The notes under the pieces are model-generated. The model ran no database searches. It had not been told where the DNA came from and worked only from the letters and a program-made list of their open reading frames with translations. From positions 448,001-512,000 of the forward strand of contig CBDCTJ010000003.1 of NCBI GenBank assembly GCA_965222115.1: a DNA stretch of 64,000 nt, read 5' to 3'. This document shows, piece after piece, positions 26,701 through 48,144 of the stretch. Position 1 is the stretch's first letter, and every line of letters starts with the position of its first letter. Both the position numbers and the translations under genes were made by a program. Source of the stretch: Planctomycetota bacterium (GTDB lineage Bacteria > Planctomycetota > PLA2 > JAEUHO01).

Positions 26701-27141
26701 GTGAGTGATTTTGATCGCGTCGCAGAGAGGATTCGTGAACTCGATTCAGGCGACGTTGGTACCGGCGTCTCTGAGGATGCGGTGACCGCCGCGGAGGCTG
26801 CGCTCGCCGTGAAGCTTGTAGGAGGATACAGAGAGTTTCTACTGGTCTTCGGCTTTGGCGGAGTTGAGGATGTTGAGTTGTATGGGCTTGGTGGTCCGGA
26901 CTATCTCGATGTAGTCCAGATTACGAAGAGTGAAAGAGCGATAGCAGAGCCTCAGCTCCCGCACCACCTAGTCCCAATTTGGAATGATGGCGGAGGCAAT
27001 TTGTATTGCCTGAACACGCGGGAAGGCGAGGAACATCCGATCGTGTTTTGGGATCATGAGTTGGGATCTGATCAGGCACCTGACATTGACGCTCCAGATT
27101 TCGCGACTTGGATGATGGAACAGCTAGATGGCCTGGACTGA
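26701..27141 (+). CDS. SMI1/KNR4 (SUKH) family immunity protein
   Basis: AAEAALAVKLVGGYREFLL..G.G, LVPIWNDGGGNLYCL, IVFWDHE, DFATWM. Confidence 0.9.
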   Translation: MSDFDRVAERIRELDSGDVGTGVSEDAVTAAEAALAVKLVGGYREFLLVFGFGGVEDVELYGLGGPDYLDVVQITKSERAIAEPQLPHHLVPIWNDGGGNLYCLNTREGEEHPIVFWDHELGSDQAPDIDAPDFATWMMEQLDGLD

Positions 27142-30666: not shown

Positions 30667-33327
30667 TCATTCGGGTTGGGGAAGGCGAATCTCGACGCCC
30701 TTGGTGCCCGGCGTGGCCCTTTGAGTGGCCACTCGCGACTTGCCCTTCTCGTACAAGTACATGCGAAGCTGGACGTCCTCGGAACGCGCAGGATCCACAA
30801 CCGCTACATAGCGTCCGTCCGGACCAACTTTGGCGATCCCGATCTGCTTTTCGTCGTGAAAGACTTGGACGAAGCCGTTCCTTATCGGCTTGCCATCGTG
30901 CTCGAACACTGTGCCCTCAATGGTCGTCCCCGTTGCAAACTGGACTTCAATGGTCTGTCCATGGGGAACCACGGATTTCGGCGCAGGGACACGCCAGGGT
31001 TGTTCAGCGGTTGAAGAGAAGAGGACGCGAACTTGCGTCGGCTGCGCGAGAAGGTCTTCGTACGTGACCTCTCCCTTGTCGTCAGTCCGAGAGTAGCCCT
31101 TGCGACCGGGCGATGTTGGATGAAGGGACACAGGGACCTTCGGCACGGCGTTTCCACTGGGATCGAGCGCTCGCACAGTCAGCGAACGGTCGCTTGCAAT
31201 TGCCTTAGCACGAACCACGATGTCCTGTGCGCCCGGTTCGACGCCCTCTGCCACACCTGCGATCGCTTTATGCGTAGGCATGTGTAACCGAGCCCTGCTC
31301 GAACCCGCCATTCCGCGAAATACGACGTCGAACACTTCCTTGCTGCTTGTGCGGTAGGTAAACACGCCAAGTTCGTCGCAGTAGGCTTGCACGATCTCTT
31401 GTCCGTCACGCCTGAACGTGACGTGTGCCCACGCCACGGGCTTGCCCCCAGGGTCGAGTACGCGTCCCTTGGTCAGTAGCGCACGCTTGAGCACGATTTC
31501 GATATCGTTTTGATCGACAACTTTGGTGCCTTGGTGCGGTTCGTAGGGCGCGTCTTTGCCAAACCATACTTGCAGTTGCATGGTGCCCGGCTTCACGCGC
31601 ACCACAGCGAGACCGTCGATGTCTGTGCTTGTGCTCACGCCCGCTTGCTGCCGGGCTCCGGTCACCGCCAGTCGTGCATGCTTCACCGGATTTCCAGCGT
31701 CGTCGACCACGCGCACACGCACTTCGCGAGAGTCCTCGAGGGTGATGTCGACCGTAGTGGGCTCATCGTCGTCTTTCAGTACAACATCCTGTCTGGTCGC
31801 TGCTTCGCCTTGCGGCGTCACAGACAGCCGATACTTGCTGGGGGGAAGATCGTCGAAGCGGAACCGACCCAGATCATCGGTTGCACGATGCAGTGTTCGC
31901 GCATACCTGTGTCCGCGTGGTCCATCGGGCAAATGCGTAAGGCTCGCAGAGGCACGCCCGACGGGCGTCCCATCCGCGAACGCCACCCTGCCGATCAGAC
32001 TGCGGCTCGGGCCAAGGGTGATGTCTTCAAGATCGACTTCGCGACCGTCCGTTGGCGGTGGCACCGCCTCCGCAAAGTACCGGGCGTGGCCGCGCGCGAA
32101 TACCGTCAAGCTGTGCGTCATCTCTCGACGTAAGCTTGAGATTGTAAATCGCCCCGCCGCGTCGGTAACCGTGCTGCCCATGGAGCTGACACTGCTCTGG
32201 TATCCGATCGCGCTGACCTGAGCCTTTCCAATCGGATTGCCGTCCGCATCGACGACGCGCCCTACAAAGCGATGCCCGGGTACGAGTTTGAAGTCGAGCG
32301 TCTCGTGCTGCTCGACGTCAATCTGGGCGCGGCCATAGCCTTCCGCCAGGACGTGAACATCCGTGACACCTTTGCCGGTCCATCCATGGAGCACGAAGCG
32401 CCCGTCCGCATCCGTCTTGGTCCGCGGAGTCAGAACCCAGTTCATGCCGACGTGCGCTCCCTCGACTGCTTTGCCTGTCGTGGCATCGGTCACACGACCG
32501 CGGAGGGTTCGGCCCTTTGGCAAGGTTAAGTCGTGAGTCGTCGTCCCAGATTTCTCCATCGAGATGGTAATCCAACTGGGGTTGCCCCAGCCTTCGCGCT
32601 GAGGACGTGGGTCGAGGAAGATCCTTGGCATGGGCGGTATGTCGTCAAACACACATACCCCGGCCTCATTGGTTGTTCCCACGCGTCGGAATGACGTATC
32701 GCGACGGCCGCGGCGAAACACGTGTAGCAACAGGCCCGCTGCCGGCTTGCCCTCCGGCGTCTTGACGTTGACAACAAGAACCCGAGGTTTTTGCATGACG
32801 ATGCGCGCGCGCTCACCGGACAGGCGCAAGGTGTATTCGGTCGTCGCCAATCCATCGGCCGAGACACGAAGATTTACGTGCTCGCCCTTTCGAAGCCGAA
32901 TCAAGAACGTCCCGTCAACCGCACTGCGAGTCGCGAGCCCTGCATGCGATTCGCCGTAGAGACCCCGTCTAGTCAATAGACCATCGTGACGCCAGGGGTA
33001 GTGGAGTACTTGCAGCGCCGCACCCGCAACCGGCGAACCATCTTCACGAACAACCACGCCATGCAGATCGCGCTCACGATCTGCTTTGCTGAGGTCTACG
33101 GGAGCAGGAAGCGCGGGAGCCTCTTCAACGTCTGTGGAGCCGCCGCCCTTGAGACCGACATGGTCCTTGGCGTTCTGCTCTACCGTGAGCGACGCGTTTG
33201 GCGTCCCCACATTGTTGGACTCGGCATTCGCGTCGCTAGGTGAATTATCACCCCGCCATCCGTAGTTCCAGACGAGCGCGACAATGACGAGTAGCGCCAG
33301 AACGATCAACCAGCGTCGTGTCTGCAT
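30667..33327 (-). CDS. Large carboxypeptidase-regulatory-like domain repeat protein
   Basis: N-terminal TM; about 9 repeats of GRV.D..G.PV..A...TD..GRF. Confidence 0.85.
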   Translation of the reverse strand: MQTRRWLIVLALLVIVALVWNYGWRGDNSPSDANAESNNVGTPNASLTVEQNAKDHVGLKGGGSTDVEEAPALPAPVDLSKADRERDLHGVVVREDGSPVAGAALQVLHYPWRHDGLLTRRGLYGESHAGLATRSAVDGTFLIRLRKGEHVNLRVSADGLATTEYTLRLSGERARIVMQKPRVLVVNVKTPEGKPAAGLLLHVFRRGRRDTSFRRVGTTNEAGVCVFDDIPPMPRIFLDPRPQREGWGNPSWITISMEKSGTTTHDLTLPKGRTLRGRVTDATTGKAVEGAHVGMNWVLTPRTKTDADGRFVLHGWTGKGVTDVHVLAEGYGRAQIDVEQHETLDFKLVPGHRFVGRVVDADGNPIGKAQVSAIGYQSSVSSMGSTVTDAAGRFTISSLRREMTHSLTVFARGHARYFAEAVPPPTDGREVDLEDITLGPSRSLIGRVAFADGTPVGRASASLTHLPDGPRGHRYARTLHRATDDLGRFRFDDLPPSKYRLSVTPQGEAATRQDVVLKDDDEPTTVDITLEDSREVRVRVVDDAGNPVKHARLAVTGARQQAGVSTSTDIDGLAVVRVKPGTMQLQVWFGKDAPYEPHQGTKVVDQNDIEIVLKRALLTKGRVLDPGGKPVAWAHVTFRRDGQEIVQAYCDELGVFTYRTSSKEVFDVVFRGMAGSSRARLHMPTHKAIAGVAEGVEPGAQDIVVRAKAIASDRSLTVRALDPSGNAVPKVPVSLHPTSPGRKGYSRTDDKGEVTYEDLLAQPTQVRVLFSSTAEQPWRVPAPKSVVPHGQTIEVQFATGTTIEGTVFEHDGKPIRNGFVQVFHDEKQIGIAKVGPDGRYVAVVDPARSEDVQLRMYLYEKGKSRVATQRATPGTKGVEIRLPQPE

Positions 33328-33387
33328 ATGTACTCCCCGCAGTGTTGAACGCGCACATCATAGCAAGGCTCGATTTAAGATACCGAG

Positions 33388-33891
33388 TTACATTCTGAAA
33401 TCTGTGTCCATGGCTCCGGATGGTAGAACCTTCTCGTATGGATAGCAGCGCGTGACGCCAAATCCGGGCGTGGCCTCGCATGTTGCGACGTATCCATGAC
33501 GCTCATAGAACGTCCTGGCGCAGACTGTGCTGTTGAGCGTGATTCGTTTTGTTCCCCAACGTGCCGCTTGCGTTTCCAGAGCAGCCAACATTTGGGCTCC
33601 AACGCCGCGGGATTCCTGTCCGGGCAGCACGTAACACAGCGTAATGGTGCCGCTTCGCCCGATCGATCCAACACCCACAATCTCGTCATGCAACTCGGCC
33701 ACGATCATGAAGGTCTCATTGCTGGCGATCCACTCTCCGACGCGTCGGGCCGTCTTGTTGGATAGCCACTGTGCCAACGTGTCGGGATCGTGCTGATGGT
33801 CGGCAGTGCAAAGTTCTTGAATGGAACGTCGAAGGACGTGGGCAGCCACGGGAGCATCGGAAGCCAGAGCGGGACGAACGGTTACGGACAT
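33388..33891 (-). CDS. GNAT acetyltransferase
   Basis: MSVTVRPALASDA.., CYVLPGQESRGVGAQML, ARTFYERHGY. Confidence 0.88.
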   Translation of the reverse strand: MSVTVRPALASDAPVAAHVLRRSIQELCTADHQHDPDTLAQWLSNKTARRVGEWIASNETFMIVAELHDEIVGVGSIGRSGTITLCYVLPGQESRGVGAQMLAALETQAARWGTKRITLNSTVCARTFYERHGYVATCEATPGFGVTRCYPYEKVLPSGAMDTDFRM

Positions 33892-34036
33892 GGTGTCGCG
33901 CCACTCTACTGGCACACCGCGCCGTCGTCGCGATCCTCGCTCTCCGCGCCAGCGTCGGGCTTGCAGCAGGCGGGATGCGGGGAAGGCCTCCGCTACGCGC
34001 AGAATCTGGTGCGGTGCAGCGTGTGATCCTCCCGCG

Positions 34037-34357
34037 ATGCTCACTGACCCCGATCCCGATGTGCAAGCGCTTCTGTCGGCCGGGCGCAATGCGGAAGCGC
34101 GCAAAGAGAGGCTCGGAGAGCTCCTCTTTCAGTACCGCGCACGGCTTTTGCGGGTGGTCGAGCTGCGGATGGATCCCGTATTGCGCGCTAGGCTCGGAGC
34201 ATCGGACGTGGTGCAAGATGCGTATGTAGAAATCGCCCGCCGTGTCGATCGCTACCTCAAGGCGCCCACCATGCCCTTTTTCTTGTGGGCGCGCTTCATC
34301 ACCGTTCAGCGAATCCTGAAGGCGCATCGCTTTCATGTGAGTGCCCAGCAACGAGAC
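34037..34357 (+). pseudogene. Planctomycete-type ECF sigma-70 factor, 3'-truncated at MITE copy 1
   Basis: YRARLLRVVELRMDPVLRARLGASDVVQDAY..MPFFLWARFI..HRFH..AQQRD, then MITE TIR; region 4 absent. Confidence 0.85.
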
Positions 34358-34678
34358 ACGGTGTACGGGCAAAATCCACACTTTTCTTGTCCTTATGGAG
34401 TGCGATGCGCACTCCTCTAGCGACGTGTAGATCATCGATGGAGCGTTCGTGTGAGACCGAAGCACCGGTGGGGTATCGAACTTTTGAGAACTCTTTGCGG
34501 TCGGCATGATGCATAGCTGATCGCAGCGGCAACGGACGCAAACACTGTGGACTGCACACAACAAGTATCATTGCCGATATGTGTGAATTTGCTTCTGACG
34601 CTGTACTCCTGCACACGGCATTCGCGCTGTTGACTGAACGCTGCCCTACGAAAGGTGTGGATTTTGTCCGTACACCGT
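34358..34678. mobile_element. MITE copy 1 (24-bp TIR ACGGTGTACGGRCAAAATCCACAC)
   Basis: TIRs 34358-34381 and 34655-34678 (23/24 complementary); interior homologous to copy 2 but about 90 bp shorter; no transposase. Confidence 0.88.
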
Positions 34679-34680
34679 AT

Positions 34681-34743
34681 GCCCTGGGACTCCTGCAACA
34701 GCGGATGGCAGGCTGGCGGCCATCGTTCGGAGGACTTGAGTGA
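34681..34743 (+). pseudogene. 3' remnant of a SsuC/TauC-type ABC permease
   Basis: ALGLLQQRMAGWRPSFGGLE* overlaps the ATPase start (GTGA); resembles the tail of the intact permease at 48145-49017 (AIFGWIERRLVPW..). Confidence 0.6.
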
Positions 34744-35528
34744 CGACTGCACAGCTCGAAGTTGAACGAGCCCATTTCGTTGTGCGATCAAAGGCCTTCG
34801 GCGATCAGGTCGTGCTTCGAGCGGTGGACGCTACCGTGCGTCGGGGCGAGATTCTGGAAATCCTTGGCCCAAGCGGCATCGGCAAGACAACGCTGCTGCG
34901 GATAGTCGGCGGGCTGGACACGGACTACGACGGAGAGGTGGTGATCGCAGGCAGCGAGCTGACGGGCCCCTCAAGAAACGTCGCGTTTGTGTACCAAGAT
35001 CCGGCACTGTTGCCATGGAAGACAATCCACTCGAATCTGCGCTTCGCCCAGAGCCACGAGCTATCTCACAGTGAATCTGCGGCCCAGATAGAGCACGCCC
35101 TGGAGCTTGTAAACCTGGATCCTGAGACTGTCTCTCTGAAGCGGCCGAGTCAAGTGTCTCGCGGGATGGCCAAGCGAGTAGCGATTGCGCGTAGTATCGT
35201 GCAAGGTGCCCACACAATCTTGATGGATGAACCGCTGGCGGATGTTGATCAGTTCACGAGAGAAGCGATACAGGAAACGATTGTCCGCCTTCCCGTAGCG
35301 CGAAAGACGGAGCCCAGCATTCTCTTCGTCACCCATGACGTCAGAGAAGCCGTATTCATGGCTGATCGGCTCCTGCTTCTCTCCCCTGAGCGCCCGGCTA
35401 CGGCAGACAGGATCATCGAGGTCGGTGTTGCGCGGCCCCGCGACCGACTTGACAGACGACTCCTTGAACTCGAAGCAGAGATCGATGAACACTATCGCTC
35501 GGCGTGTGAGACTGGACGGACGGACTGA
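34740..35528 (+). CDS. Orphan NitT/TauT-family ABC ATP-binding protein
   Basis: GPSGIGKT Walker A, YQDPALLPW, VSRGMAKR signature variant, LMDEPL, FVTHD. Confidence 0.9.
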   Translation: MTTAQLEVERAHFVVRSKAFGDQVVLRAVDATVRRGEILEILGPSGIGKTTLLRIVGGLDTDYDGEVVIAGSELTGPSRNVAFVYQDPALLPWKTIHSNLRFAQSHELSHSESAAQIEHALELVNLDPETVSLKRPSQVSRGMAKRVAIARSIVQGAHTILMDEPLADVDQFTREAIQETIVRLPVARKTEPSILFVTHDVREAVFMADRLLLLSPERPATADRIIEVGVARPRDRLDRRLLELEAEIDEHYRSACETGRTD

Positions 35529-35579
35529 CAAGTAGCCGGCGAGCCTCCGGGCTGGCCCAATGCCGTTTCGCGATGGTCG

Positions 35580-36689
35580 CTACGCCTCCGGCAGGACCGT
35601 CAGTAGCAGAGCAGCCATTCGTACATGGAGGACCCGGGCTTCTTCGGCTGTCAGTTCAGACGGGACTCGGTGAACCGATTCGTCGAACAGCTTCAAGAAC
35701 GGACCCACAGCGTCGACGTCCGTGGCGACGTACTTCTGCATGGAGGCCGTTTCTTGCCTGGCAATGAAGCGAATCCTGGCCTTGCGCGTTGGCTTGCCAT
35801 TGCTGAAGTCCTTCGGGTCCGTCGACCAATCCTGAACCTTGTCATCCGGGGAGAGGGTGTGCAGCACGTATCGGAAGAGCTCGCGCAACGAGGCGCCAAC
35901 ATGGCGTGCGACATCCGGCCCGCCCGCGCTCAATGCGGCGGAGGCGCCCTCCCAAAGGCTGACGCACTCCGGATCGAGCGCTGTGAGTCGGTCCACGAGC
36001 ACCACCTCCGTCTGGTCGAGAACGAGCGTGGTCTGCGCTTCGGCATCCTCTTCGAGCTCGGGCTCGCGGTCTTCGCGGGGGAGCGTTACGACTTCGGCAA
36101 GCCGCGAAGCCACAAATCGCTCACGTGCAACGGTCGCGGCTGTCTGCAGCCGCACGTGCGTCTCAAGCGATGCTGCCCCAAGCTCCGCGAGTACGTCCGA
36201 CTCTGCAGCCCAGAGACGACCGAGTTTCGCGTCGATCTGTGTGGCGGCAGCCCAGTCTGACGGGACCAGGCCGCCAATCTTCAGCCCGGCCATCTGATCC
36301 GCGAGGCGAGAAGAGATCGACAGTGACTGCTCGAACGCAGCCAGAACTTTCGCAGACTCCGCCAACGTTGAGGCGTACCCCGGCAGCTTCGGGGTCGTTG
36401 CCTTGGCCAAGGCGTCTAGCTGGCGCTGGGATGCGTTCTGGATCTCCTGGAACTGCTGGCTGACGCGAGTCACGGAACTTGCGACCTCAATCGCCTTGAG
36501 ATTCGGAGCTGACAGCTGCTCCAAGCGCCGGGTCTGCTGGGCGATCTGCTCCACAACGTGCATTGCGCTGGCTGACTTTGCCATCTCCTGCATCGTCGTG
36601 CCAAGAAGGCGGGAGTTCTCGATCATCCTGACAAAGGCCTCGGTGGCGCGCATGTGCGCCATCAGGGCTGAACTGTCGTGCTTAGCCAC
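35580..36689 (-). CDS. Protein with helical low-complexity N-region and C-terminal predicted pPIWI-associating nuclease-like (pP_pnuc_1) domain
   Basis: LWEGASAAL..GPDVARHVGASLRELF..VLHTLSPDD.V..W...NGKPTRKARIRFI; GTG start with GGAG RBS. Confidence 0.65.
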   Translation of the reverse strand: MAKHDSSALMAHMRATEAFVRMIENSRLLGTTMQEMAKSASAMHVVEQIAQQTRRLEQLSAPNLKAIEVASSVTRVSQQFQEIQNASQRQLDALAKATTPKLPGYASTLAESAKVLAAFEQSLSISSRLADQMAGLKIGGLVPSDWAAATQIDAKLGRLWAAESDVLAELGAASLETHVRLQTAATVARERFVASRLAEVVTLPREDREPELEEDAEAQTTLVLDQTEVVLVDRLTALDPECVSLWEGASAALSAGGPDVARHVGASLRELFRYVLHTLSPDDKVQDWSTDPKDFSNGKPTRKARIRFIARQETASMQKYVATDVDAVGPFLKLFDESVHRVPSELTAEEARVLHVRMAALLLTVLPEA

Positions 36690-36845
36690 GGTCTCACTCC
36701 CGGTCCTTGTGCGCCCCCGCACCGGATCATACCGGACGAAATACGGAGATGGGATGAAAAGGCCGGTAGCTCCTCTGTCGCGCAGTCACGGTAAACCGTG
36801 CTGCAAACAATAAACGGGCTCTACGGCCCAGGAGGAGCTACCAGC

Positions 36846-37895
36846 ATGCATAAGCGTATCACCGAAACGATTGGCATCGACTTAGGCGACCGATTCTCTT
36901 GGTATTGTGTCTTAGATCAAGACACGGGGGTTCAGAAGGAAGAAGGCGAGATAGCGACAACGCGCGAATCGTTTCACGAGTTTCTCTCGAAGCACCGAAC
37001 CGCTCGAGTTGTGATGGAGGCGGGAACGCATTCGCCTTGGGCGAGTCGGGTCGTCGAAGGTCGATGTGCTCAGTCGCTAGTCGCGAATCCGCGAGAGCTA
37101 AGCTTTATTTACAGGAACGCTCGCAAGTCCGATCGAACGGATGCCAAGAAGTTGGCTGAAATCGGTCGCTTCGATCCCCAACTACTTGCCCCAATTCGGC
37201 ATCGACCGGAGTCCGCACAACGAGACCTTGCGCTGATTCGTGCACGAGCCGCGCTTGTGTCGTCACGAACCAAGTTGGTGAACTCGCTACGAGGTGTCAT
37301 TAAGAGCATGGGCGGGCGGTTGCGTAAGCAGGCATCAAAATGCATCGGATCGAAGACGCGGGCCGAGATTCCGGAGGAGCTCTGCGATGTGCTCAATCCC
37401 ATTCTCAGTGCAATCGAGCGAATCACTGAGTTGGTAAAGATCTACGACGCAAAGATCGATGAGTTGGCGAAGGAGCGATATCCAGATACACAGTTGCTCA
37501 CTCAGATTCCAGGCGTGGGCAATCTCACGGCACTCGCATTCATGTTGACCGTTCAAGATTGGGCGCGGTTTGAAGACCGCCGAGATGTCGGGGCGTTTCT
37601 CGGGATGGTTCCACGGCGTGATCAATCCGGCCAAATGGACAAGCAGCTACGCATAACGAAGGCTGGGGACCGTATGGTTCGGTCGTTGCTCGTTCAGTGC
37701 GCGCATCACATCCTCGGGCGACTGGGCCCGCCATGCGATCTAAAGTCCCACGGTGAGCGGATCATTGCGCGTGGAGGCGCAGTTGCGAAACGCAAGGCAG
37801 TCATCGCCGTGGCACGCAAGCTCTCCGTGCTCATGCTTGCGCTGTGGCGAACAGGCGAAGAGTACATACCGGTTCGATGCCCAGTGGCTGCCTGA
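36846..37895 (+). CDS. IS110-family DEDD transposase / bridge recombinase
   Basis: IGIDLG, VVMEAG, KSDRTDA (DEDD), IPGVG, FLGMVPRRDQSG (catalytic Ser), AVARKL; RBS AGGAGG. Confidence 0.97.
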   Translation: MHKRITETIGIDLGDRFSWYCVLDQDTGVQKEEGEIATTRESFHEFLSKHRTARVVMEAGTHSPWASRVVEGRCAQSLVANPRELSFIYRNARKSDRTDAKKLAEIGRFDPQLLAPIRHRPESAQRDLALIRARAALVSSRTKLVNSLRGVIKSMGGRLRKQASKCIGSKTRAEIPEELCDVLNPILSAIERITELVKIYDAKIDELAKERYPDTQLLTQIPGVGNLTALAFMLTVQDWARFEDRRDVGAFLGMVPRRDQSGQMDKQLRITKAGDRMVRSLLVQCAHHILGRLGPPCDLKSHGERIIARGGAVAKRKAVIAVARKLSVLMLALWRTGEEYIPVRCPVAA

Positions 37896-37953
37896 ACCTC
37901 GCGCAACAGCTTTAGGCAAGCATTAGAAAGGTCAGTTTCCACGTACCCCAATT

Positions 37954-38101
37954 CGAGTCCGGGTGACTGCGGTGCCCTGACCGACGTATAGCGACGTCGC
38001 TACTGAGTATGCAGCACCCAGACTCGTTCTCGGACCCCACCTTGCACCGGGTCGCATCAACTTCGATCCAACACGAGTGCGCATAGAAGCCTGAATGGGA
38101 C
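37954..38101 (+). ncRNA. Predicted bridge/seek RNA core (target-binding and donor-binding loops)
   Basis: Stem 37954-37965/38015-38026 enclosing an 11x11 internal loop; second loop with cccacct (38036-38042) and catagaag (38082-38089) matching the IS circle junction. Confidence 0.75.
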
Positions 38102-38726
38102 GTGTTTTCTGGCGCCAGTGACGATGGCTGGCAATTTGATTCGCTCCGATCCGCTGCCAGAAAGGCAAGGGCGATAAGGGTAAGTTGCGTACTCAAGGGG
38201 CCGAACTACACATGCACAACGCGGTAAATGCGCTCGCCGACGCGGCTTCGCACTTGACATGCCAGGCCTTTTCATAGAAGTACGGGAAAAATCCACACTT
38301 TTCTTGTCCTTTAGGTGCGCCATGCACGCTCCTCTAGCGACGTGCAGTTCATCGATGAATTGTTCGGTCGAGATAGACGTCGCAGATGGGGCACCAAACT
38401 CTCAAGCTCTCTTTGCGCTGGGCAAGCCAGTCGAATTCGATCGCCAGCATGCCTCATGGTCATTGCAATGATCCTACTTCGTCACGTCGACATAGTCACT
38501 CGGCACGATCGGAATGACGCATAGCAGATCGCAGCGGCAACGGACGCAAACACTGTAGACTGTACACAACAAGTATCGTTGCCAATAAGTGTGAATTTGC
38601 TTCTGACGCTGTTCTCCTGCACGCAGCATTCGCGCTGTTGACTGAGCGCTGCCCTACGACAAGTGTGGATTTTTCCCGTACACCGTATTCTTGCGGAACG
38701 CGGTGCGGCGCTAGGCCACGGAGTGG

Positions 38727-39947
38727 TCAGCAGGCGATCTCCGAGACGGTCAGATTGCCTTTACCGTCACGGCAGAAGATCGTGGTGTCTCCGTCCGTGG
38801 AGACCACAAGGCCGAAAGAGTCCGAAACGCGGCTTGTCGCACATGCGATCGACTTGTGTCTCGTCCCCTTCTTGCGCGACTCCAAGAACTCCCGGACCCC
38901 AGGCGGTAGGTCGGGGTATGCATCCTCCGCAAGCAGCTTGCTGCCGACACCCAGGGGACGGAGCATGGGTCCGAGAACCACTGCCCCGTCGATGCGCGTC
39001 GCGTGGCAGAGACGCACGACCTCGTCGTCAGCCATTCGCGCCGACGTCAGCATGTGCTGGGTGTACGGATGCTTCAGTGCTGGCGGCGGCGCCGGAGGAT
39101 CGGCGGGGTCGATAGCACGGCACGCGAGCGACTCCTGCAACCCCCCCGACCAGTCATCGCCGGCCGACTTCAAGGCGTTTGCCTGGTCTACACACTTCAG
39201 TTCGTCGAGCGACGCGGCGCAGGTGACCAGTACCCCGGCGCCGCCGCCGAGTCTCCTTGCCGACCGCGCTAACTTGAGCAGGGACTGTCCCAAGCCATGA
39301 GCGATGCCAAGCAGCAACGGTGCGTCGGCACGCACGACCCAGTCGGCCTGTTCTTCCGCAGTGAACAGACTCCTATGCAGGTCGCCGGCGCGGAGTTGAA
39401 CATCCCAGCTGGAAATCAGCAGGTATGCGGGCGGGATCACCGTCCCCACTTCGATTAAGGTGGCTGGGCGTCGGCACGCCGTCTTCAGGAAGACAGCTTC
39501 ACCGTCGGCGTTCTTGACATACAGCTCCGCGACGTCCCGCAGCTCTACGACACAGCCCGCTCCCCACTCGAAGGCATGGCCACTCACGAAGTTCGCAACT
39601 TGACGGGAGACGATGCCACGGACACGAAGCCCATCGTTGCTCCCTTCGATGACGAATGCCGTCTCCCACGGATCGAAAGCCGAGCCGACTTTGCGAAGCC
39701 AGTCCACTGAAACGGAGGGCTTCTGCGAGAACTCGACGAGCAAGTTCAGTGTGGCGTCGGCGGGAAGCAGGAGAAACGACCCGCACGGCACGCGCCCCTC
39801 TTCCCGGTAGAGCCCGGTCTCGTAGAGCAGATCAAGCAACTCGGTCGTCGCGGGAGGCCACGGCAAGCGGTCACTTTCAGCGAGATGCTCTTGCGCCGCG
39901 TCGAGTAGTGACGACGCGTCAAAGCGCCGATAGCCTGCAGTAGCCAT
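38727..39947 (-). CDS. Diadenylate-cyclase (DisA_N/DAC) domain protein with DACNV-type N-terminal sensor
   Basis: LYETGLYREEGR N-motif; IDGAVVL and GTRHKS..VVSTDG DAC motifs; RBS GGAGG. Confidence 0.8.
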   Translation of the reverse strand: MATAGYRRFDASSLLDAAQEHLAESDRLPWPPATTELLDLLYETGLYREEGRVPCGSFLLLPADATLNLLVEFSQKPSVSVDWLRKVGSAFDPWETAFVIEGSNDGLRVRGIVSRQVANFVSGHAFEWGAGCVVELRDVAELYVKNADGEAVFLKTACRRPATLIEVGTVIPPAYLLISSWDVQLRAGDLHRSLFTAEEQADWVVRADAPLLLGIAHGLGQSLLKLARSARRLGGGAGVLVTCAASLDELKCVDQANALKSAGDDWSGGLQESLACRAIDPADPPAPPPALKHPYTQHMLTSARMADDEVVRLCHATRIDGAVVLGPMLRPLGVGSKLLAEDAYPDLPPGVREFLESRKKGTRHKSIACATSRVSDSFGLVVSTDGDTTIFCRDGKGNLTVSEIAC

Positions 39948-39995
39948 GTGCCTCCCCGATCGAGCCTAGCACGCGGTCAATTGCCTCGCAGTACA

Positions 39996-40029
39996 TAATA
40001 CCGTAATACCGTGCCGTAATACCGTGCCG
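39996..40029. repeat. Short tandem repeats TAATACCG(TGCCG) x3 upstream of the DAC gene
   Basis: taataccg-taataccgtgccg-taataccgtgccg. Confidence 0.75.
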
Positions 40030-40079
40030 CGTTTCTTCCCACCAAGTAAGTGACTCTAGACCTATGCGCATTCAGAGAT

Positions 40080-40585
40080 TCGGTGTGCGGGCGAAGTCCA
40101 CACGTTCTGTATTGCTCGGCGAAGTCAGAGGCATCTTGCCCACACGAAATGAGTGGAGGATCGGGGAAGAGTCGGAACTTCTGTGTAAGGCATGTCGTCC
40201 GATCCAAAGCCGAGAGAATGCACCGTGGCTCAACGTAAAGAAGAGCGAGCCCGTAGGCGTTACTGGTTCGAGCCCAGTAACGCACACCAACGAGTTCTCC
40301 TCCTTCTTAGCAATAGCCCAACTCACGCCATACTGGAGCCCCCCAAAATGGCAAGTTCCATGCTGCGACAAAACACGTGACCGCTTCTCAGCCACTTTGG
40401 CTGCCGAGCCGCCAACAGCTTGCGTCGACGGACTAATCTTTGGTCATTCAAATGGTGGGCTAATTTGTGGTGCGTATCAAGTCGTGTCGAATTGCCTCGG
40501 ACTGTCAAGGAAACGCTGCACTAGGCGTCCGCCCTGGTGACTGTGCGCTGTCCTACTAAAGGTGTGGATTCTGCCCGTGAACCGT
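40080..40585. mobile_element. MITE-family copy 3 (degenerate TIRs, different interior containing a tRNA-Val fragment)
   Basis: Left tcggtgtgcgggcgaagtccacac; right gactgtgcgctgtcctactaaaggtgtggattctgcccgtgaaccgt matches the right ends of copies 1 and 2. Confidence 0.7.
40244..40289 (+). repeat. Degenerate distal copy of the tRNA-Val 3' end (att-like)
   Basis: agcgagcccgtaggcgttactggttcgagcccagtaacgcacacca vs 23946-23991 (4 mismatches in 46). Confidence 0.85.
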
Positions 40586-40634
40586 ATCTTCAGAGCAATG
40601 AACACCGTTTTCGCATCCCGAAGCAAACTGTAGA

Positions 40635-41561
40635 TCACCTTCCCTGAAAGCCATGGCGCCTCATGATTTTGAGTTGCTCCAGCTGCAGTTTGTGGATCCC
40701 TTTCAGCTTAGTCTCCAGACTCGATGGATCCTGAATGAGTTTGTGCTCGAGCATATAATTCTTCCACCTCTCCGACTGGCCCGGTGACATTGTCCCAAGG
40801 TGTTCGATTAGCTTAAGAGAGTCCGTGGAGCTTAGCGTTGATCCATTTTGCTTGGCGAGTGCAACCATATTGCATCTCTGAAGATGTTTCAGAAGAGGAG
40901 TAGGTGCAATCGTTTTTTCAGTTTGGTAATTGAGCACCAACTCACGCAATTCGGAATCGTCCAACGCATTGCCAATTCGCTCTTGAACATATCGTGCGCA
41001 ATTGTTGAACAGTGCATGATAATTCCATTCAACATAGTTTTCTTCTGAGACTTCAACTCTCTTCATTGCTAGCAAGACGGAGCGCAGCATCTTGTGAACT
41101 GACCGATTTGACATTAGATCAGAAATAGACTCTTGAGTGATGTGCGTGTTCTCTCCCTTCTTCGACATCAACTGCTTCTTCCCAAACACTCTTAGGATCG
41201 AGATCGCCTCGTGATTGGCATTCTTGGGTCGTCTTCCCACGTCAATAACAAAGCTCTTCTGTTTAGCGTCAGACCCGAGGCTGACAGTGATGGCCGCATG
41301 TTCCCCATGCCCGAAGAGCCCCCTAGGATTCCACACCACATAGGCTACATTTGAGACTTCCTGTCCGGCGTCAACGCATGCGCGTAGTTCCTTTAGCGCC
41401 TTGGAAATGTTCTCCTTCGTAGTGTTGCCGTCGGGTCCCACAAATTTCTTGACCCAACGGCCGAAGTTCGAGTCACGCACTCCTGGGACAACGTGAGAGA
41501 CAAGGACTGTGAGTGCGATCAATATGACGAGCACTGCCATCCCGCGTGCAACAAGCTTCAT
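40635..41561 (-). CDS. AT-rich membrane-anchored protein with a permuted papain-like (His..NC) motif
   Basis: N-terminal TM; GHGEHAAI and YHALFNNCARYV resemble DUF4105/PPPDE-type catalytic motifs. Confidence 0.55.
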   Translation of the reverse strand: MKLVARGMAVLVILIALTVLVSHVVPGVRDSNFGRWVKKFVGPDGNTTKENISKALKELRACVDAGQEVSNVAYVVWNPRGLFGHGEHAAITVSLGSDAKQKSFVIDVGRRPKNANHEAISILRVFGKKQLMSKKGENTHITQESISDLMSNRSVHKMLRSVLLAMKRVEVSEENYVEWNYHALFNNCARYVQERIGNALDDSELRELVLNYQTEKTIAPTPLLKHLQRCNMVALAKQNGSTLSSTDSLKLIEHLGTMSPGQSERWKNYMLEHKLIQDPSSLETKLKGIHKLQLEQLKIMRRHGFQGR

Positions 41562-41931
41562 GTGATCCCCCTCTCGTAATAGATCTTACCGCTCAATACA
41601 GACCAACCGTATCTCTTGAGCAACTCTGCAGGGATTAGAACAGAACGACCAAAACATGCAATGGCGGCCCTCGACGATTTTCTGGCCAGTTGACTATTAT
41701 GGATTCTGAGGCATAGATCATGCGTCGAGTTCAGCGCGATCGCACCTATAGATCAATGTCTGGTGTCATATTGAGTGAAACGCAAGTGCCTAAAGGATAG
41801 GACATTGGAACTAGGTCCACGCCTTACGGGAATTCCAACTTATATGCTGATGCACACTTCGCACGGGACTTGGAAGACCGTGGAATCTATGGACCGACCT
41901 GACGTGCAAAGCGCGAATCTACCCACCCACC

Positions 41932-44160
41932 CTACTCCACCCCCAACTCCCCTATCGCCAACAAGGCAAGCGCAGTCGAACTCGCCTTCCCAACCATGAG
42001 CGAATCGGCGAAGCTACCGTCAACCTCCTGGAGCGGACGGATGATGTCGCGAAGACGCTTGACGTACTTTTTCTGCGCGGCTTCCGGTAGCACGGCAATC
42101 GTTCGTGCGGCGTACCAGACGCCGAAGAAGTAACGGTAGGAATCCTGCATTGACGTTGGATCCACGTAGCTCTCGAAGACCTTTACTGTGCTCCGAGCGC
42201 CCTTGAGGCCATCGAAAAACACGTCTAACGACTCGTGTAGTCGCTTCTCACCCTTGGAATGGCCGGCGGCGTGGAGTGCCAACTCGCAGAGCGGGCTGCG
42301 GAAACATGAGGAGGCGCGCGCAATGTCTTTGTCGCGGGCGGGCGTCATGTGTTCCATCTTCGTGCCGTAGTGGAAGACGCTCTTGCCATCGAGGCGATTC
42401 TGCTCGAGAAACGTTGCGCAGCGGGCGATCTGCGAGTCTTCGACGGCGAAACCCTGTGCTTTCGCATTGACCAATAGAAGGAGGATCGGTGCGGTGTTGA
42501 AGGTGTGGAGGCGCGCGGGTCCTGTGTAGGTCCAGCCTCCGCCGTGCTCCGTGTCCTTGAGCTTGGCAAGGAGCTTCTCGATGCGGGCCGCACCCTTTGT
42601 CTTTGCGGCGTCACGTCGATTCGGCTGTAAGGCCAGCTCAAGATGAAGGGCATAGGTCAGATGCCAGACCTTCGGCGTCGGATCACTCGACCACGCGGAA
42701 ACGATCCTTGTACCTTTCGCAATGGCCTTGTCCGCGCGCTTCGCAAGCTCACCCTTGAGAGCGCCGCGCCACGTACGAAGCGCGTCCACACAGAGTGCGG
42801 TGCGGGGAACGATGACGCCGTAGTCAATTGCACGTTCGCGACTCGGGTGGCGATGGCAGGGCTCTGGCCAGGAACCGTCGGCATCCTGCTGATCCAATAG
42901 GAAGCTGACTGCCGCACGCACGGCGTTGCGCTCACCAGGGGCTTGTTCCGTACTGTCGAGTAGCGGGTCGGTTGCATCCTGTGCGCGGGTCTCCCACACT
43001 CGCGGAAAAGGACCATTCTTATCGAGTAGAAGACGTGAGCGCGCTTCGAGGGGCCGAGGCTCACCGCGGCGCGCAATCGCTTGCAGGTGCGTGTGCGCCT
43101 TGTCGGTGTCACCCCTTTCAAGCGCGGCGAGCGCTTTGTCGTAGTCTGCGCGATCCTTCGGGTCGGCCGGATCGACGCCGACTTGGGGCATTTCCTTTGG
43201 GCGGTAGCGCTTGTTCTTATCGAGTATCGCACGACAGGTACGCTCGAAGAGTCGCGGATCAAACACTGCCATACGAACGACGCGATGGACACATTTACCG
43301 CTCGGCGTGGCGAAGATGATTGCCGGCGCATGGGAATCGGCCGCAGACGTGCCGAGTTGCGGAAGAGGATCGGACCACGTGCCCTTCCCCGAAGAAAGAA
43401 AGTGCCATGTGTGCATATGCACGCGCACGGGAATGAAACATGTGGCAACTAGATTGGACACGGCGGGATCGCCGAGGAATGCCGTGAGGATGGCGCGCTC
43501 CTTCCAGTAACCGGGATCGCGAGTGATCGGAGACGGCGGCGGCGCTGCCTGATTGGGATGACGAAACTCTGCGACCTTGCGGGCGCCTTCGTATCCCGCT
43601 TCCCAAACTTTGTTGTCCCACGGCGTCACGAATGCGAGGACAAGCTTGTTTTCGTCTTTGGCTCTTGCGCGCGCCGCTTCGATGGTGTCGGCCCAGGGGA
43701 TCCACGGAAACACGAGCTTACCGGATGCTGCGCCGGATAGCGCCTCGATGGCTTTTGTGATCTGAGTCTTCACGTTCGGTCGCTTGCACGCTACTTCGAG
43801 TGCCTTCAACTTGGGAAGCACGGAGCGGTCACCGATTCGCCCCAACGCCTCCGCAGCACAACCCGCTACGAGCGCGTTGGGATCCTCGACGCCAACGAGC
43901 AGATCCGCGACAGCGGCGCGTGCTTTCACTGAACCAAGGACTTTGGCGGCGTGCCAACGACGCGTCGGGTCCTTGTCGTCGCGGAACACCTTGTGAACCG
44001 CCGGGATCACCGGCTCGCCGAGCCGGGTCAACGCCTGCATAGCTTCAAATGGGTGCTTCTGATCACTCGTTCCGAGCTTCTTCACCCATGTGGCGACGTC
44101 ATCGTTTCCGGCAAATGCCATTCCTGTGAACAACAGCACCAACAAGATTGCACGCTTCAT
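41932..44160 (-). CDS. Exported multidomain protein: HEAT, thioredoxin-like, prenyltransferase/squalene-cyclase-like alpha toroid
   Basis: Signal peptide; HEAT repeats; IPWADTIEAARARAKDENKLVL; FLLDQQDADGSW, HGGGWTY, LQEVDGSF repeats. Confidence 0.72.
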   Translation of the reverse strand: MKRAILLVLLFTGMAFAGNDDVATWVKKLGTSDQKHPFEAMQALTRLGEPVIPAVHKVFRDDKDPTRRWHAAKVLGSVKARAAVADLLVGVEDPNALVAGCAAEALGRIGDRSVLPKLKALEVACKRPNVKTQITKAIEALSGAASGKLVFPWIPWADTIEAARARAKDENKLVLAFVTPWDNKVWEAGYEGARKVAEFRHPNQAAPPPSPITRDPGYWKERAILTAFLGDPAVSNLVATCFIPVRVHMHTWHFLSSGKGTWSDPLPQLGTSAADSHAPAIIFATPSGKCVHRVVRMAVFDPRLFERTCRAILDKNKRYRPKEMPQVGVDPADPKDRADYDKALAALERGDTDKAHTHLQAIARRGEPRPLEARSRLLLDKNGPFPRVWETRAQDATDPLLDSTEQAPGERNAVRAAVSFLLDQQDADGSWPEPCHRHPSRERAIDYGVIVPRTALCVDALRTWRGALKGELAKRADKAIAKGTRIVSAWSSDPTPKVWHLTYALHLELALQPNRRDAAKTKGAARIEKLLAKLKDTEHGGGWTYTGPARLHTFNTAPILLLLVNAKAQGFAVEDSQIARCATFLEQNRLDGKSVFHYGTKMEHMTPARDKDIARASSCFRSPLCELALHAAGHSKGEKRLHESLDVFFDGLKGARSTVKVFESYVDPTSMQDSYRYFFGVWYAARTIAVLPEAAQKKYVKRLRDIIRPLQEVDGSFADSLMVGKASSTALALLAIGELGVE

Positions 44161-48070: not shown

Positions 48071-48144
48071 TCAAGCGCATGTAGGAACTGCCAAGTCTCC
48101 GGAAGCGGTAGCCGAGTAGCGCTTCAGTGCCGTAGAGTCGTGGC

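What the first reader, a model, noticed from the sequence alone, without database searches (positions are those of the whole stretch)
35580..39947. Candidate DACNV-diadenylate cyclase plus nuclease-like effector module hidden by nested insertions
Seen: both genes are on the minus strand and separated almost only by MITE2+IS; removing these leaves about 90 bp between the DAC stop and the effector start. AT on both sides of MITE2 fits a clean insertion. The DAC keeps the DGA and RH(K) motifs. Known: stand-alone DACs with DACNV-type sensors and pP_pnuc domains have been predicted in conflict/defence contexts. Inference: a cyclic-nucleotide-signalling anti-phage pair, possibly transcriptionally uncoupled here.
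Basis: inference. Interest (0 to 1): 0.72.

Follow-up and report, generated by a model that had tools for sequence, protein, structure and literature searches.

The report
Cyclase and nuclease-like genes, probably unlinked
A divergent cyclic-di-AMP synthase gene and a predicted-nuclease gene lie next to each other, split by two nested mobile elements, but the two families were never found together elsewhere, so they are probably neighbours by chance and not a new anti-phage system.

Summary
On the minus strand lie a 406-aa DACNV+DAC protein (38727-39947) and a 380-aa protein with a C-terminal pP_pnuc_1 domain (35580-36722). Between them lies almost only a MITE (36741-36746 plus 38279-38688) that carries an IS110-family element (about 36747-38278) inside its terminal repeat. 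Without both, 58 bp (first GTG) or 91 bp (gene-caller start) remain. The cyclase is credible: model pLDDT 94; DisA, CdaA and CdaM chains match at Z 9.9-12.5 and the next chain scores 3.9; the DGA, RHK and SxDG motifs are intact.

The pairing is not supported. None of 34 other DACNV-DAC loci (33 genomes of the phylum) has a pP_pnuc_1 neighbour. None of 66 pP_pnuc_1 loci has a DAC. DACNV-DAC genes lie mostly among housekeeping genes. pP_pnuc_1 genes lie alone, with changing neighbours that are often restriction-modification or Abi genes. The genome also has a canonical CdaA-type DAC and a second DACNV paralogue.

Most likely (about 0.68) these are two independent genes in a stretch rich in mobile elements. 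A private cyclic-dinucleotide and nuclease pair is not excluded (about 0.15): the effector's N-terminal 235 residues have no detectable relative, and both genes are high-GC outliers.

The parts
38727..39947 (-). Gene for a 406-aa DACNV + DAC (diadenylate cyclase) protein, with an intact ORF
   Evidence: ORF. DACNV 30.4 bits. Model pLDDT 94, pTM 0.91. DAC fold: Z 12.5 to DisA 3c1y, and six DAC chains at Z 9.9-12.5 against 3.9 for the next chain. 37 Foldseek matches at E<=0.001; every row listed is a DAC or CdaA-type chain.
39609..39872 (-). DACNV 'probable sensor' domain (residues 26-113)
   Evidence: PF21751, E 4.5e-07. No solved-structure match above Z 3.1 for the N-terminal half.
38730..39314 (-). 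DAC catalytic domain (about residues 212-406) with DGA (320-322), RHK (363-365) and S383-x-D385-G386
   Evidence: Columns invariant in 14 relatives: G236, D320, G321, G361, R363, H364, A368, V381, S383, D385, G386. Structural alignment to CdaA and CdaM covers residues 212-406.
38689..38726 (.). 38-bp spacer between the DAC stop codon and the right end of MITE2
   Evidence: Coordinates.
38279..38688 (.). MITE2, main body with the right terminal repeat and most of the left one
   Evidence: 24-29-nt inverted repeats. Alignment with MITE1 and MITE3. Motif found 6 times against 0.06 expected.
36747..38278 (+). IS110-family insertion sequence (about 1.53 kb) nested in the left terminal repeat of MITE2. 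Transposase ORF at 36798-37895; its likely ATG is at 36846.
   Evidence: Pfam DEDD_Tnp_IS110 and Transposase_20. NCBIfam transpos_IS110, 220 bits. Two further full copies at 98% identity define the ends.
36741..36746 (.). Displaced left tip of MITE2's terminal repeat (ATACGG)
   Evidence: Comparison of both IS junctions with the intact repeat read from the right end of MITE2.
35580..36722 (-). Gene for a 380-aa protein (369 aa from the gene-caller start at 36689): an orphan helical N-terminal region plus a C-terminal pP_pnuc_1 domain
   Evidence: ORF. The 369-aa form is P0002. Residues 1-235 match nothing but the protein itself, while the C-terminal part matches 75 targets. Model pLDDT 60.5; the N-terminus is modelled as long helices of low confidence.
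35625..35984 (-). pP_pnuc_1 domain (residues 247-366), an all-helical, HEPN-like fold at weak significance
   Evidence: PF18165 72.9 bits. PADLOC Aga_Nuclease E 4.2e-08. VIA-align matches over 247-380 to HEPN proteins 2hsb (Z 8.8), 1ufb (8.1), 5yep_B (8.0), sacsin HEPN (7.8), RnlA (7.6) and LsoA (7.5), all within the noise range the tool states for helical bundles.
34356..34682 (.). MITE1, an intact copy of the same MITE family
40078..40589 (.). MITE3, a diverged copy between the upstream ORFan and the DAC start
40635..41561 (-). Upstream co-directional ORFan (308 aa) with a hydrophobic N-terminal segment; GC 0.49
   Evidence: No Pfam, PADLOC or NCBIfam match. Only itself among 5.8 billion proteins by word search. 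GC.

Best explanation
These are two independent genes that happen to be neighbours in a stretch riddled with mobile elements.

(1) The 406-aa protein is an accessory diadenylate cyclase of the DACNV type. An N-terminal domain of unknown fold probably gates a catalytically competent C-terminal DAC domain. That domain would condense two ATP into c-di-AMP or a related cyclic dinucleotide (inferred from fold and motifs; no product shown). It most likely serves cellular signalling and not immunity.

(2) The 380-aa protein is a stand-alone member of the pP_pnuc_1 family, a family often found in defence islands. It has a lineage-specific helical N-terminal region and a C-terminal all-helical, HEPN-like domain predicted to be a nuclease. 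The activity and the trigger are inferred, not shown.

(3) A MITE landed in the 58-91 bp spacer between them. An IS110-family RNA-guided transposase element then inserted site-specifically into that MITE's terminal repeat. Both coding sequences were left intact.
For: The cyclase is real:
- Model pLDDT 94.
- Six solved DAC chains match at Z 9.9-12.5, with a sharp drop to 3.9.
- 37 Foldseek matches at E<=0.001; every row listed is a DAC or CdaA-type chain.
- The DG(A), GxRH(R/K)S and SxDG columns are invariant in 14 relatives.
- 12 of the 13 weak profile hits in the PDB are DACs.

No conserved pairing:
- The DAC profile found matches in 33 of 401 genomes of the phylum. All 34 other loci were fetched, and none holds a pP_pnuc_1 ORF. 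29 of the 34 have at least 1200 bp downstream.
- Their neighbours are heterogeneous and mostly housekeeping: PNPase, FolD, UvrD, peptidase S9, QueG, glutamate synthase, aminotransferase.
- pP_pnuc_1 occurs in 6 of 401 genomes of the phylum. 0 of 66 pP_pnuc_1 loci hold a DAC: 5 from the phylum, 2 cyanobacterial, 59 metagenomic.
- Their neighbours change from locus to locus and are often defence genes: type I RM, Eco57I/MmeI, BsuBI/PstI, AbiH, AbiEii, SLFN_AlbA_2, DUF499, HEPN_Swt1, TIR_2, PLDc_2.
- The effector's C-terminal domain also occurs on 9 plasmids. The two I looked at show no DAC. The cyclase occurs on no plasmid.

Other points:
- The genome has its own canonical DAC (126.8 bits) beside a pterin-binding gene (Pterin_bind), and a second DACNV paralogue, 31% identical, with no nuclease beside it.
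- The effector has no Pfam sensor domain.
- The IS sits at the same position of a MITE-like repeat in a second genomic copy, so its presence here reflects target choice and not selection on these genes.
Against: - The two genes are co-directional, and only 58-91 bp apart once the insertions are removed. That distance is compatible with an operon.
- Both are compositional outliers of nearly the same kind. GC is 0.635 and 0.632; GC3 is 0.742 and 0.751. The genome means are 0.59 and 0.66, which puts both in the top 2% of 2236 ORFs. This hints at joint acquisition. It is weak evidence: 66 of 2522 ORFs reach GC 0.63, and 1.7 adjacent high-GC pairs are expected by chance.
- The effector's N-terminal 235 residues have no detectable relative, so they could be a private sensor.
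- The closest cyclase relatives (36% identity and below) are on short metagenome contigs that I could not fetch. The cyclase-side survey covers one phylum only.
- DAC enzymes were recently shown to work in anti-phage systems: PanDA/Panoptoo and CdaG/DS-2C (PMC13640721, abstract and sections 3 and 5; 10.64898/2026.08.10.743927, abstract and section 5).
Confidence: 0.68

Rival explanations
1. CBASS-like private pair. The DACNV domain senses infection and switches on the DAC. The cyclic dinucleotide then binds the effector's orphan N-terminal region and releases the pP_pnuc_1 nuclease, aborting infection. The MITE and IS now uncouple the two genes transcriptionally.
For: - Co-directional genes with a 58-91 bp spacer before the insertions.
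- Intact catalytic motifs.
- Matching high-GC composition.
- The effector family keeps company with defence genes and matches the PADLOC Aga_Nuclease model.
- The orphan N-terminal region is free to be a sensor.
- DACs are used in immunity elsewhere.
Against: - 0 of 34 DACNV-DAC loci and 0 of 66 pP_pnuc_1 loci show the pairing.
- DACNV-DAC genes lie mostly among housekeeping genes.
- Pfam finds no SAVED, STING, CARF, 2TM-beta or other known nucleotide sensor in the effector.
- A housekeeping DAC in the same genome would give cross-talk if the signal were plain c-di-AMP.
- The compositional match is within chance expectation.
Confidence: 0.12
2. Panoptes/PanDA-like guard. The cyclase constitutively makes a dinucleotide that holds the nuclease-like effector off. 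A phage sponge or nuclease that depletes the signal releases the effector.
For: The logic is documented for minimal DACs with 2TM-beta effectors (PMC13640721, abstract and sections 3 and 5; 10.64898/2026.08.10.743927, abstract). The adjacency and intact motifs are the same as for the first rival.
Against: - This cyclase is not minimal: it carries a 200-residue N-terminal domain.
- The effector is not a 2TM-beta protein.
- There is no conserved pairing.
[quoted passage not shown] This genome has a canonical DAC.
- If the guard logic held, uncoupling by the IS should be harmful.
Confidence: 0.05
3. The cyclase's true partner is another neighbour. One candidate is the upstream co-directional 308-aa ORFan with a hydrophobic N-terminal segment, now separated from the cyclase by MITE3. 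Another is a distant receptor such as the cNMP-binding oxidoreductase seen downstream of relatives. The pP_pnuc_1 gene would be unrelated.
For: - The ORFan, the cyclase and the nuclease-like gene are all on the minus strand, each separated by a MITE.
- In 4 relatives' loci (3 genera of one family, f5) a cNMP_binding + Pyr_redox_2 gene directly follows the DACNV-DAC gene.
Against: - The ORFan has no relative anywhere and none in any fetched locus.
- Its GC (0.49) differs strongly from the cyclase's (0.635).
- No cNMP-binding oxidoreductase was seen among the window genes scanned.
Confidence: 0.05

Closest known systems
DACNV-type diadenylate cyclases (Pfam PF21751 + PF02457). The 22 DAC families sorted by regulatory domain come from Galperin 2023, J Bacteriol. 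I could not read that paper; I know it only from passages in PMC13640721 that cite it.
   Same: N-terminal DACNV domain above the Pfam cut-off and a C-terminal DAC fold with DGA and RH(K) motifs. The ESM Atlas's nearest clusters carry DACNV in 84-97% of members and are commonest in Myxococcota, Planctomycetota and Verrucomicrobiota.
   Different: Very divergent: the best relative among 1.84 billion representatives is 36% identical, and the Pfam DAC model scores only 12.9 bits. No function or product is known for this type in anything I could search; the word DACNV occurs in no relevant paper of the library.
PanDA / Panoptoo (PanS minimal DAC + PanE 2TM-beta effector) and CdaG/DS-2C DACs in CBASS variants
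   Same: A DAC-fold enzyme next to a putative toxic effector. The catalytic motifs are kept.
   Different: PanS has about 150 aa and no regulatory domain, and more than 90% of its clade pairs with 2TM-beta proteins. CdaG carries DACNG + DACNH domains. Here the domain is DACNV, the neighbour is a pP_pnuc_1 protein, and the pairing is not conserved.
pP_pnuc_1 (PF18165, 'predicted pPIWI-associating nuclease') / PADLOC Aga_Nuclease
   Same: The C-terminal domain scores 72.9 bits. It has the usual build: a variable N-terminal region of about 250 aa plus the C-terminal domain. Relatives lie in defence-rich surroundings.
   Different: The genome has no Piwi gene (90% complete), and none appears among the neighbours scanned. 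The N-terminal region has no relative. Nuclease activity is a prediction attached to the family's name, not a tested fact.
HEPN-domain RNases (for example RnlA, LsoA and the SO_3166-type HEPN toxins)
   Same: The all-helical C-terminal domain aligns over residues 247-380 with several HEPN structures at Z 7.5-8.8.
   Different: The Z-scores lie within the tool's stated noise range for helical bundles. By eye, no canonical Rx4-6H motif lies at the conserved positions (R273, H274, R280, E281, D293, T312, R313, H351).
IS110-family RNA-guided transposases that target repeated elements
   Same: NCBIfam equivalog at 220 bits. No terminal inverted repeats of its own. It is inserted at the same point of a MITE-like terminal repeat in two copies.
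   Different: No bridge RNA was identified: Rfam gives no match in 33000-42000, and no 8-mer is shared between the MITE repeat and the IS non-coding ends.

Membership tests
DAC / DisA_N diadenylate cyclase (PF02457) | DAC fold | tested here: met
   VIA-align Z 12.5 (3c1y DisA, rmsd 3.0, 133 aligned), 12.4 (DacM), 11.9 (MsDisA), 11.9 (2fb5), 10.4 (CdaM) and 9.9 (CdaA); the next chain scores 3.9. Foldseek gives 37 matches at E<=0.001.
DAC / DisA_N diadenylate cyclase (PF02457) | DGA and RHR catalytic motifs. These are named as required for substrate recognition and second-messenger formation in 10.64898/2026.08.10.743927, section 5. | tested here: met
   D320-G321-A322 and R363-H364-K365. D320, G321, R363 and H364 are invariant in 14 relatives, and position 365 is R or K (T in one). 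They align with DGA and GTRHRSA of DisA.
DAC / DisA_N diadenylate cyclase (PF02457) | Pfam model score above the gathering cut-off | tested here: not met
   12.9 bits against 27, covering residues 352-395 only. This is a sequence-divergent member recognised by fold and motifs.
DAC / DisA_N diadenylate cyclase (PF02457) | Synthesis of c-di-AMP from ATP | not testable with these tools
   Needs an enzyme assay or LC-MS.
DACNV sensor domain (PF21751) | Pfam model score above the gathering cut-off | tested here: met
   30.4 bits against 27, residues 26-113. The in-genome paralogue scores 35.4 bits.
pP_pnuc_1 (PF18165) | Pfam model score above the gathering cut-off | tested here: met
   72.9 bits against 26.3, residues 247-366.
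pP_pnuc_1 (PF18165) | Association with a prokaryotic PIWI/Argonaute gene (from the family's name) | tested here: not met
   No PF02171 match in the genome, which is 90% complete. No Piwi among the neighbours of relatives scanned.
Cyclic-oligonucleotide signalling defence systems (CBASS, PanDA/Panoptoo type) | Cyclase and effector conserved as an operon across genomes | tested here: not met
   0 of 34 DACNV-DAC loci and 0 of 66 pP_pnuc_1 loci show the pairing.
Cyclic-oligonucleotide signalling defence systems (CBASS, PanDA/Panoptoo type) | Effector carries a nucleotide-sensing domain | tested here: inconclusive
   Pfam finds only pP_pnuc_1. The N-terminal 235 residues are an orphan, modelled at low confidence, so a new sensor cannot be excluded.
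Cyclic-oligonucleotide signalling defence systems (CBASS, PanDA/Panoptoo type) | Protection against phage that depends on the cyclase's catalytic residues | not testable with these tools
   Needs a phage challenge.
HEPN nuclease superfamily | Helical-bundle fold of the HEPN type | tested here: inconclusive
   Z 7.5-8.8 to six HEPN entries over residues 247-380. The tool warns that a Z under about 13 for helical bundles may be chance.
HEPN nuclease superfamily | Rx4-6H catalytic motif (recalled from general knowledge of HEPN) | tested here: not met
   By eye, none lies at the conserved positions of alignments A2 and A6. The conserved R273-H274 are adjacent to each other.
IS110 family | DEDD N-terminal domain and Transposase_20 C-terminal domain; NCBIfam equivalog | tested here: met
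   66 and 78.7 bits. NF033542 scores 220 bits against 140.

The most novel reading that the evidence does not exclude
A third kind of DAC-based immune module, private to this lineage. A DACNV-gated cyclase would signal with c-di-AMP, or with a non-canonical dinucleotide that avoids cross-talk with the resident CdaA. The signal would be read by a previously unseen helical sensor fused to a pP_pnuc_1/HEPN-like nuclease. The two genes would have been acquired together, as their matching high-GC composition hints, and are now uncoupled by a MITE and an RNA-guided IS.
Probability: 0.15. Interest if true: 0.7.

Novelty: new member of a known kind. Interest (0 to 1): 0.3.

Why it matters
DAC enzymes were recognised as immune signalling enzymes only in 2026, in two forms: minimal PanS, and CdaG/DS-2C. 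A DACNV-type cyclase wired to a nuclease would have been a third form. The survey here argues against that for this locus. It suggests that DACNV cyclases are mostly non-immune signalling enzymes of unknown input, and that pP_pnuc_1 proteins are stand-alone genes of defence islands that do not need an Argonaute. What remains of value:
- a very confident model of a highly divergent DAC with an N-terminal domain of unknown fold;
- an orphan N-terminal region on a predicted nuclease;
- a clean example of an IS110-family element that targets a MITE's terminal repeat.

Tried and rejected
Searches that gave nothing:
- Close relatives of the cyclase: none in genome contigs with the single protein, and none but itself by word search.
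A 5-sequence alignment ran but found no relative.
- The contigs of the nearest metagenomic cyclase relatives are short, 969-4921 bp, and were not fetched.
- Galperin 2023 is not held. The words DACNV, PF18165, PF21751 and 'pPIWI-associating' occur in no relevant paper of the library. Passages of the 2013 pPIWI-RE paper say nothing about this domain.
- Earlier findings of this scan were not open.

Tests that were uninformative:
- Synteny with relatives: the flanking HEAT-repeat gene has only 31-35% identical matches in 4 of 20 genomes of the family. I could not tell whether 33.4-41.9 kb is an inserted island.
- Promoter and terminator scan of 35400-40700: 0 promoter-like sites and 5 terminator-like sites, against 4.2 expected.
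- Rfam scan of 33000-42000: no match.
- c-di-AMP riboswitch: not found in the genome.
- Sequencing runs: no RNA holder is listed, so nothing can be said on expression. Contigs of 4 runs show no empty-site joint, but contigs drop rare variants.
- Bridge-RNA guide: no 8-mer is shared between the MITE repeat and the IS ends.
- N-terminal half of the cyclase: no solved-structure match above Z 3.1. It was not folded alone, so a known fold is not excluded.

Considered and set aside:
- Composition: the shared high GC looked striking at first, but the expected number of adjacent high-GC pairs by chance is 1.7, so I give it little weight.
- I did not send a complex prediction. The hypothesis is small-molecule signalling, not protein-protein binding.

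Full report
WHAT IS THERE

The window is G000:C3:448001-512000. Two intact ORFs lie on the minus strand: 38727-39947 (406 aa) and 35580-36722 (380 aa, or 369 aa from the gene-caller's start, P0002).

Pfam gives for the first:
- DACNV: 30.4 bits, cut-off 27, residues 26-113.
- DAC: only a sub-threshold trace, 12.9 bits, E 0.087, residues 352-395.

For the second it gives pP_pnuc_1 at 72.9 bits (cut-off 26.3, residues 247-366). PADLOC has nothing for the cyclase. For the second protein it gives Aga_Nuclease at E 4.2e-08.

THE INSERTIONS

The 2 kb between the genes holds an IS110-family element. Its transposase (36798-37895, + strand) hits DEDD_Tnp_IS110 and Transposase_20, and NCBIfam 'IS110 family RNA-guided transposase' at 220 bits against a cut-off of 140. 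The genome holds two more full copies at 98% identity, plus fragments. Aligning the junctions puts the IS ends at about 36746/7 and 38278.

A MITE family with 24-29-nt terminal inverted repeats has three copies in the window: MITE1 at 34356-34682, MITE2 at 38279-38688, and a diverged MITE3 at about 40078-40589. The repeat motif matches 6 times, against 0.06 expected.

MITE2's left repeat is cut. Its first bases (ATACGG) lie at 36741-36746, left of the IS, and the rest follows the IS.

A second copy of the IS (C7:506866-508423) is flanked in the same way by a MITE-like repeat. The IS therefore appears to choose this target.

Removing both elements leaves 18 + 38 + 2 = 58 bp between the cyclase stop and the first GTG of the downstream ORF, or 91 bp to the 369-aa start.

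Contigs from four public runs of one study join both flanks to the IS ends. None bridges an empty site.

THE CYCLASE

It has few relatives. Word search finds only itself. A full HMMER scan of 1.84 billion representatives finds 63 proteins at E<=0.001, 13 at E<=1e-10 and 4 at E<=1e-30. The best is 36% identical.

In an alignment of 14, the invariant columns are G236, D320, G321, G361, R363, H364, A368, V381, S383, D385 and G386. These form the DG(A), GxRH(R/K)S and SxDG motifs. The window protein reads DGA and RHK.

A profile of 50 relatives finds 13 PDB sequences at E<=1, and 12 of them are DisA or CdaA. The scores are weak (best E 0.058), but the profile's DGA and GtRHrS columns align with DisA's own.

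The AlphaFold2 model is excellent: pLDDT 94.0, pTM 0.91. Foldseek gives 37 matches at E<=0.001, and all rows listed are DACs or CdaA-type chains. An all-against-all VIA-align search gives six chains at Z 9.9-12.5 (DisA 3c1y, DacM, MsDisA, 2fb5, CdaM, CdaA); the next chain scores Z 3.9. The N-terminal half finds nothing above Z 3.1.

It is shown that the protein has the DAC fold with the catalytic motifs in place. It is inferred that it makes c-di-AMP or a related dinucleotide, and that the DACNV domain regulates it.

The genome also has a canonical DAC of 305 aa (126.8 bits) next to a pterin-binding (Pterin_bind) gene. It has a second DACNV paralogue, 31% identical, that runs off the end of contig C3 and continues on C5. 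No c-di-AMP riboswitch was found.

THE NUCLEASE-LIKE PROTEIN

Its N-terminal 235 residues match only the protein itself.

Relatives have the same build: a variable N-terminal region of about 250 residues, then the pP_pnuc_1 domain.

The model is poor overall (pLDDT 60.5), with long low-confidence helices at the N-terminus. It is good for residues 240-320.

The C-terminal domain aligns over residues 247-380 with HEPN proteins: 2hsb Z 8.8, 1ufb 8.1, 5yep_B 8.0, sacsin HEPN 7.8, RnlA 7.6 and LsoA 7.5. The tool warns that such Z values are common for helical bundles. By eye I see no canonical Rx4-6H motif at the conserved positions.

The genome has no Piwi gene. 'Nuclease' is therefore a prediction that comes with the family's name.

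IS THE PAIR CONSERVED?

Cyclase side:
- A profile of 14 relatives found matches in 33 of 401 genomes of the phylum, G000 included.
- I fetched all 34 other loci. These include the in-genome paralogue and two loci of one genome.
- I searched all their ORFs with two pP_pnuc_1 profiles and got 0 hits.
- 29 of the 34 loci have at least 1200 bp downstream of the cyclase, and 31 have at least 1200 bp upstream.
- I scanned the nearest neighbours against Pfam: 72 of the 119 ORFs within 4.5 kb in the first batch (the two on each side), and all 47 in the second batch.
- The neighbours are varied and mostly housekeeping: PNPase, FolD, UvrD, peptidase S9, QueG, glutamate synthase, aminotransferase, histidine kinase, fatty-acid desaturase.
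- A few conflict-type neighbours appear: GAP1-N1/PNP_UDP_1 + DO-GTPase1 in L063, DUF6602 in L061, and DUF4062 in L146.

Nuclease side:
- PF18165 occurs in 6 of 401 genomes of the phylum.
- The 5 other loci show no DAC. Their surroundings include a type I RM system with an AAA_15 ATPase (L075), a DNA methylase (L076) and DUF5677/RHS (L073). I scanned 34 of the 52 ORFs.
- Two full-length cyclobacterial-type relatives, both cyanobacterial, lie between housekeeping genes.
- A metagenome scan gave 59 loci, and 58 of them have a called ORF. 35 of those have at least 600 bp upstream and 23 have at least 1300 bp. There were 0 hits to two cyclase profiles.
- Pfam was run on 119 of the 137 neighbour ORFs. 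The 18 I dropped belong to five loci that are near-duplicates of loci kept (L085, L086, L103, L104, L128). No DAC was found.
- Many neighbours are defence genes: Eco57I/MmeI, HsdR, BsuBI/PstI, AbiH, AbiEii, SLFN_AlbA_2, DUF499, DUF1156, HEPN_Swt1, TIR_2, PNP_UDP_1, PLDc_2.
- The C-terminal domain is also found on 9 plasmids. In the 2 I looked at it stands alone, near T4SS genes, a reverse transcriptase, or a VapC pair.
- The cyclase is found on no plasmid.

POINTS IN FAVOUR OF A LINK

The genes are co-directional and were 58-91 bp apart.

Both are high-GC outliers. GC is 0.635 and 0.632, and GC3 is 0.742 and 0.751, against means of 0.59 and 0.66. About 2% of 2236 ORFs reach their GC3.

By codon usage, the nuclease-like gene ranks 140th of 2236 in closeness to the cyclase, and 15th of 123 among high-GC3 ORFs.

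This is weak evidence. 66 of 2522 ORFs have GC >= 0.63, so 1.7 adjacent high-GC pairs are expected by chance. Counting this pair with the IS removed, one is seen.

The orphan N-terminal region of the effector could be a sensor of a new kind.

COMPARISON WITH WHAT IS KNOWN

Two preprints of August 2026 describe DACs in immunity:
- Minimal DACs of about 150 aa (PanS), paired with 2TM-beta effectors in more than 90% of the clade.
- CdaG/DS-2C proteins of about 550-575 aa (DACNG + DACNH + DAC), found in CBASS variants.

For PMC13640721 I read the abstract, sections 3 and 5, and some passages. For 10.64898/2026.08.10.743927 I read the abstract and section 5. In what I read, neither mentions DACNV or pP_pnuc_1. 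The word DACNV occurs in no relevant paper of the library.

The paper that defined the DAC families (Galperin 2023) is not held. Its supplements may bear on neighbourhoods of this type, but I could not see them.

VERDICT

The functional pairing is not supported.

The most likely reading (0.68) is two independent genes: an accessory DACNV-gated cyclase for cellular signalling, and a stand-alone pP_pnuc_1 protein of the defence-island type. They are separated by a MITE that was itself hit by a target-specific IS110 element.

A private signalling pair keeps about 0.15-0.17 in total, split between a CBASS-like and a Panoptes-like logic. Each gene is a new, divergent member of a known family.

Noticed in passing
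window 36741-38300; L002 (G000:C7:506866-508423); L003-L005 (G000:C7:2359812-2362002): The IS110-family element sits at the same point of a MITE-type terminal repeat in two of its three full copies, which suggests RNA-guided targeting of the MITE repeat. At the third copy, the last 330 bp or so of the IS are repeated in tandem twice more. Isolated 3'-end fragments lie on C1.
   Followed up: partly
G000:C3:566751-567944 and G000:C5:2-127 (L048, L047): A second DACNV-DAC paralogue, 31% identical to the window's, runs off the end of contig C3 and its last 42 residues are at the start of C5. The two contigs are therefore probably joined there. Its downstream neighbour is a BNR-repeat protein, not a nuclease.
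   Followed up: partly
L050:8157-9809, L059:7621-9255, L060:8125-9771, L159:7436-9055: In four loci (3 genera of one family, f5), the DACNV-DAC gene is followed directly, on the same strand, by a gene for a cNMP_binding domain fused to a pyridine-nucleotide-disulphide oxidoreductase. This is a possible receptor for the cyclase's product.
   Followed up: no
window 40635-41561 (-): A 308-aa ORFan with a hydrophobic N-terminal segment and GC 0.49 (genome 0.587). It is co-directional with the cyclase and separated from it by MITE3. It has no family match and no relative.
   Followed up: partly
L063:5697-7045 and 7476-11492: In one genome (G245) the DACNV-DAC gene is split into two overlapping ORFs of 226 and 234 aa, possibly by a frameshift. 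It lies next to a GAP1-N1/PNP_UDP_1 protein and a DO-GTPase1, a conflict-type system.
   Followed up: no
window 34740-35528 (+) and 47096-49781 (+): A lone ABC-transporter ATPase gene lies between MITE1 and the nuclease-like gene, convergent with it. A complete NMT1-type ABC operon (binding protein, permease, ATPase) lies 12 kb away.
   Followed up: no
window 34320-34353: In run X4 one contig skips 32 bp and has a single T in their place, just left of MITE1's left end. This is a length variant at the MITE boundary.
   Followed up: no
window 26701-27138 (+) and 27872-28669 (+): A SUKH/SMI1-KNR4 immunity-type protein and an AadA_C/Polbeta nucleotidyltransferase-like protein lie 7-9 kb from the finding.
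   Followed up: no
L127:5176-7584 (also L128): In two near-identical metagenome loci, a pP_pnuc_1 gene is followed with no gap (6438/6439) by a TIR_2-domain gene and then a Schlafen AlbA_2/HATPase_c_4 gene. This is a tighter candidate partnership for this nuclease family than the one in the window.
   Followed up: no
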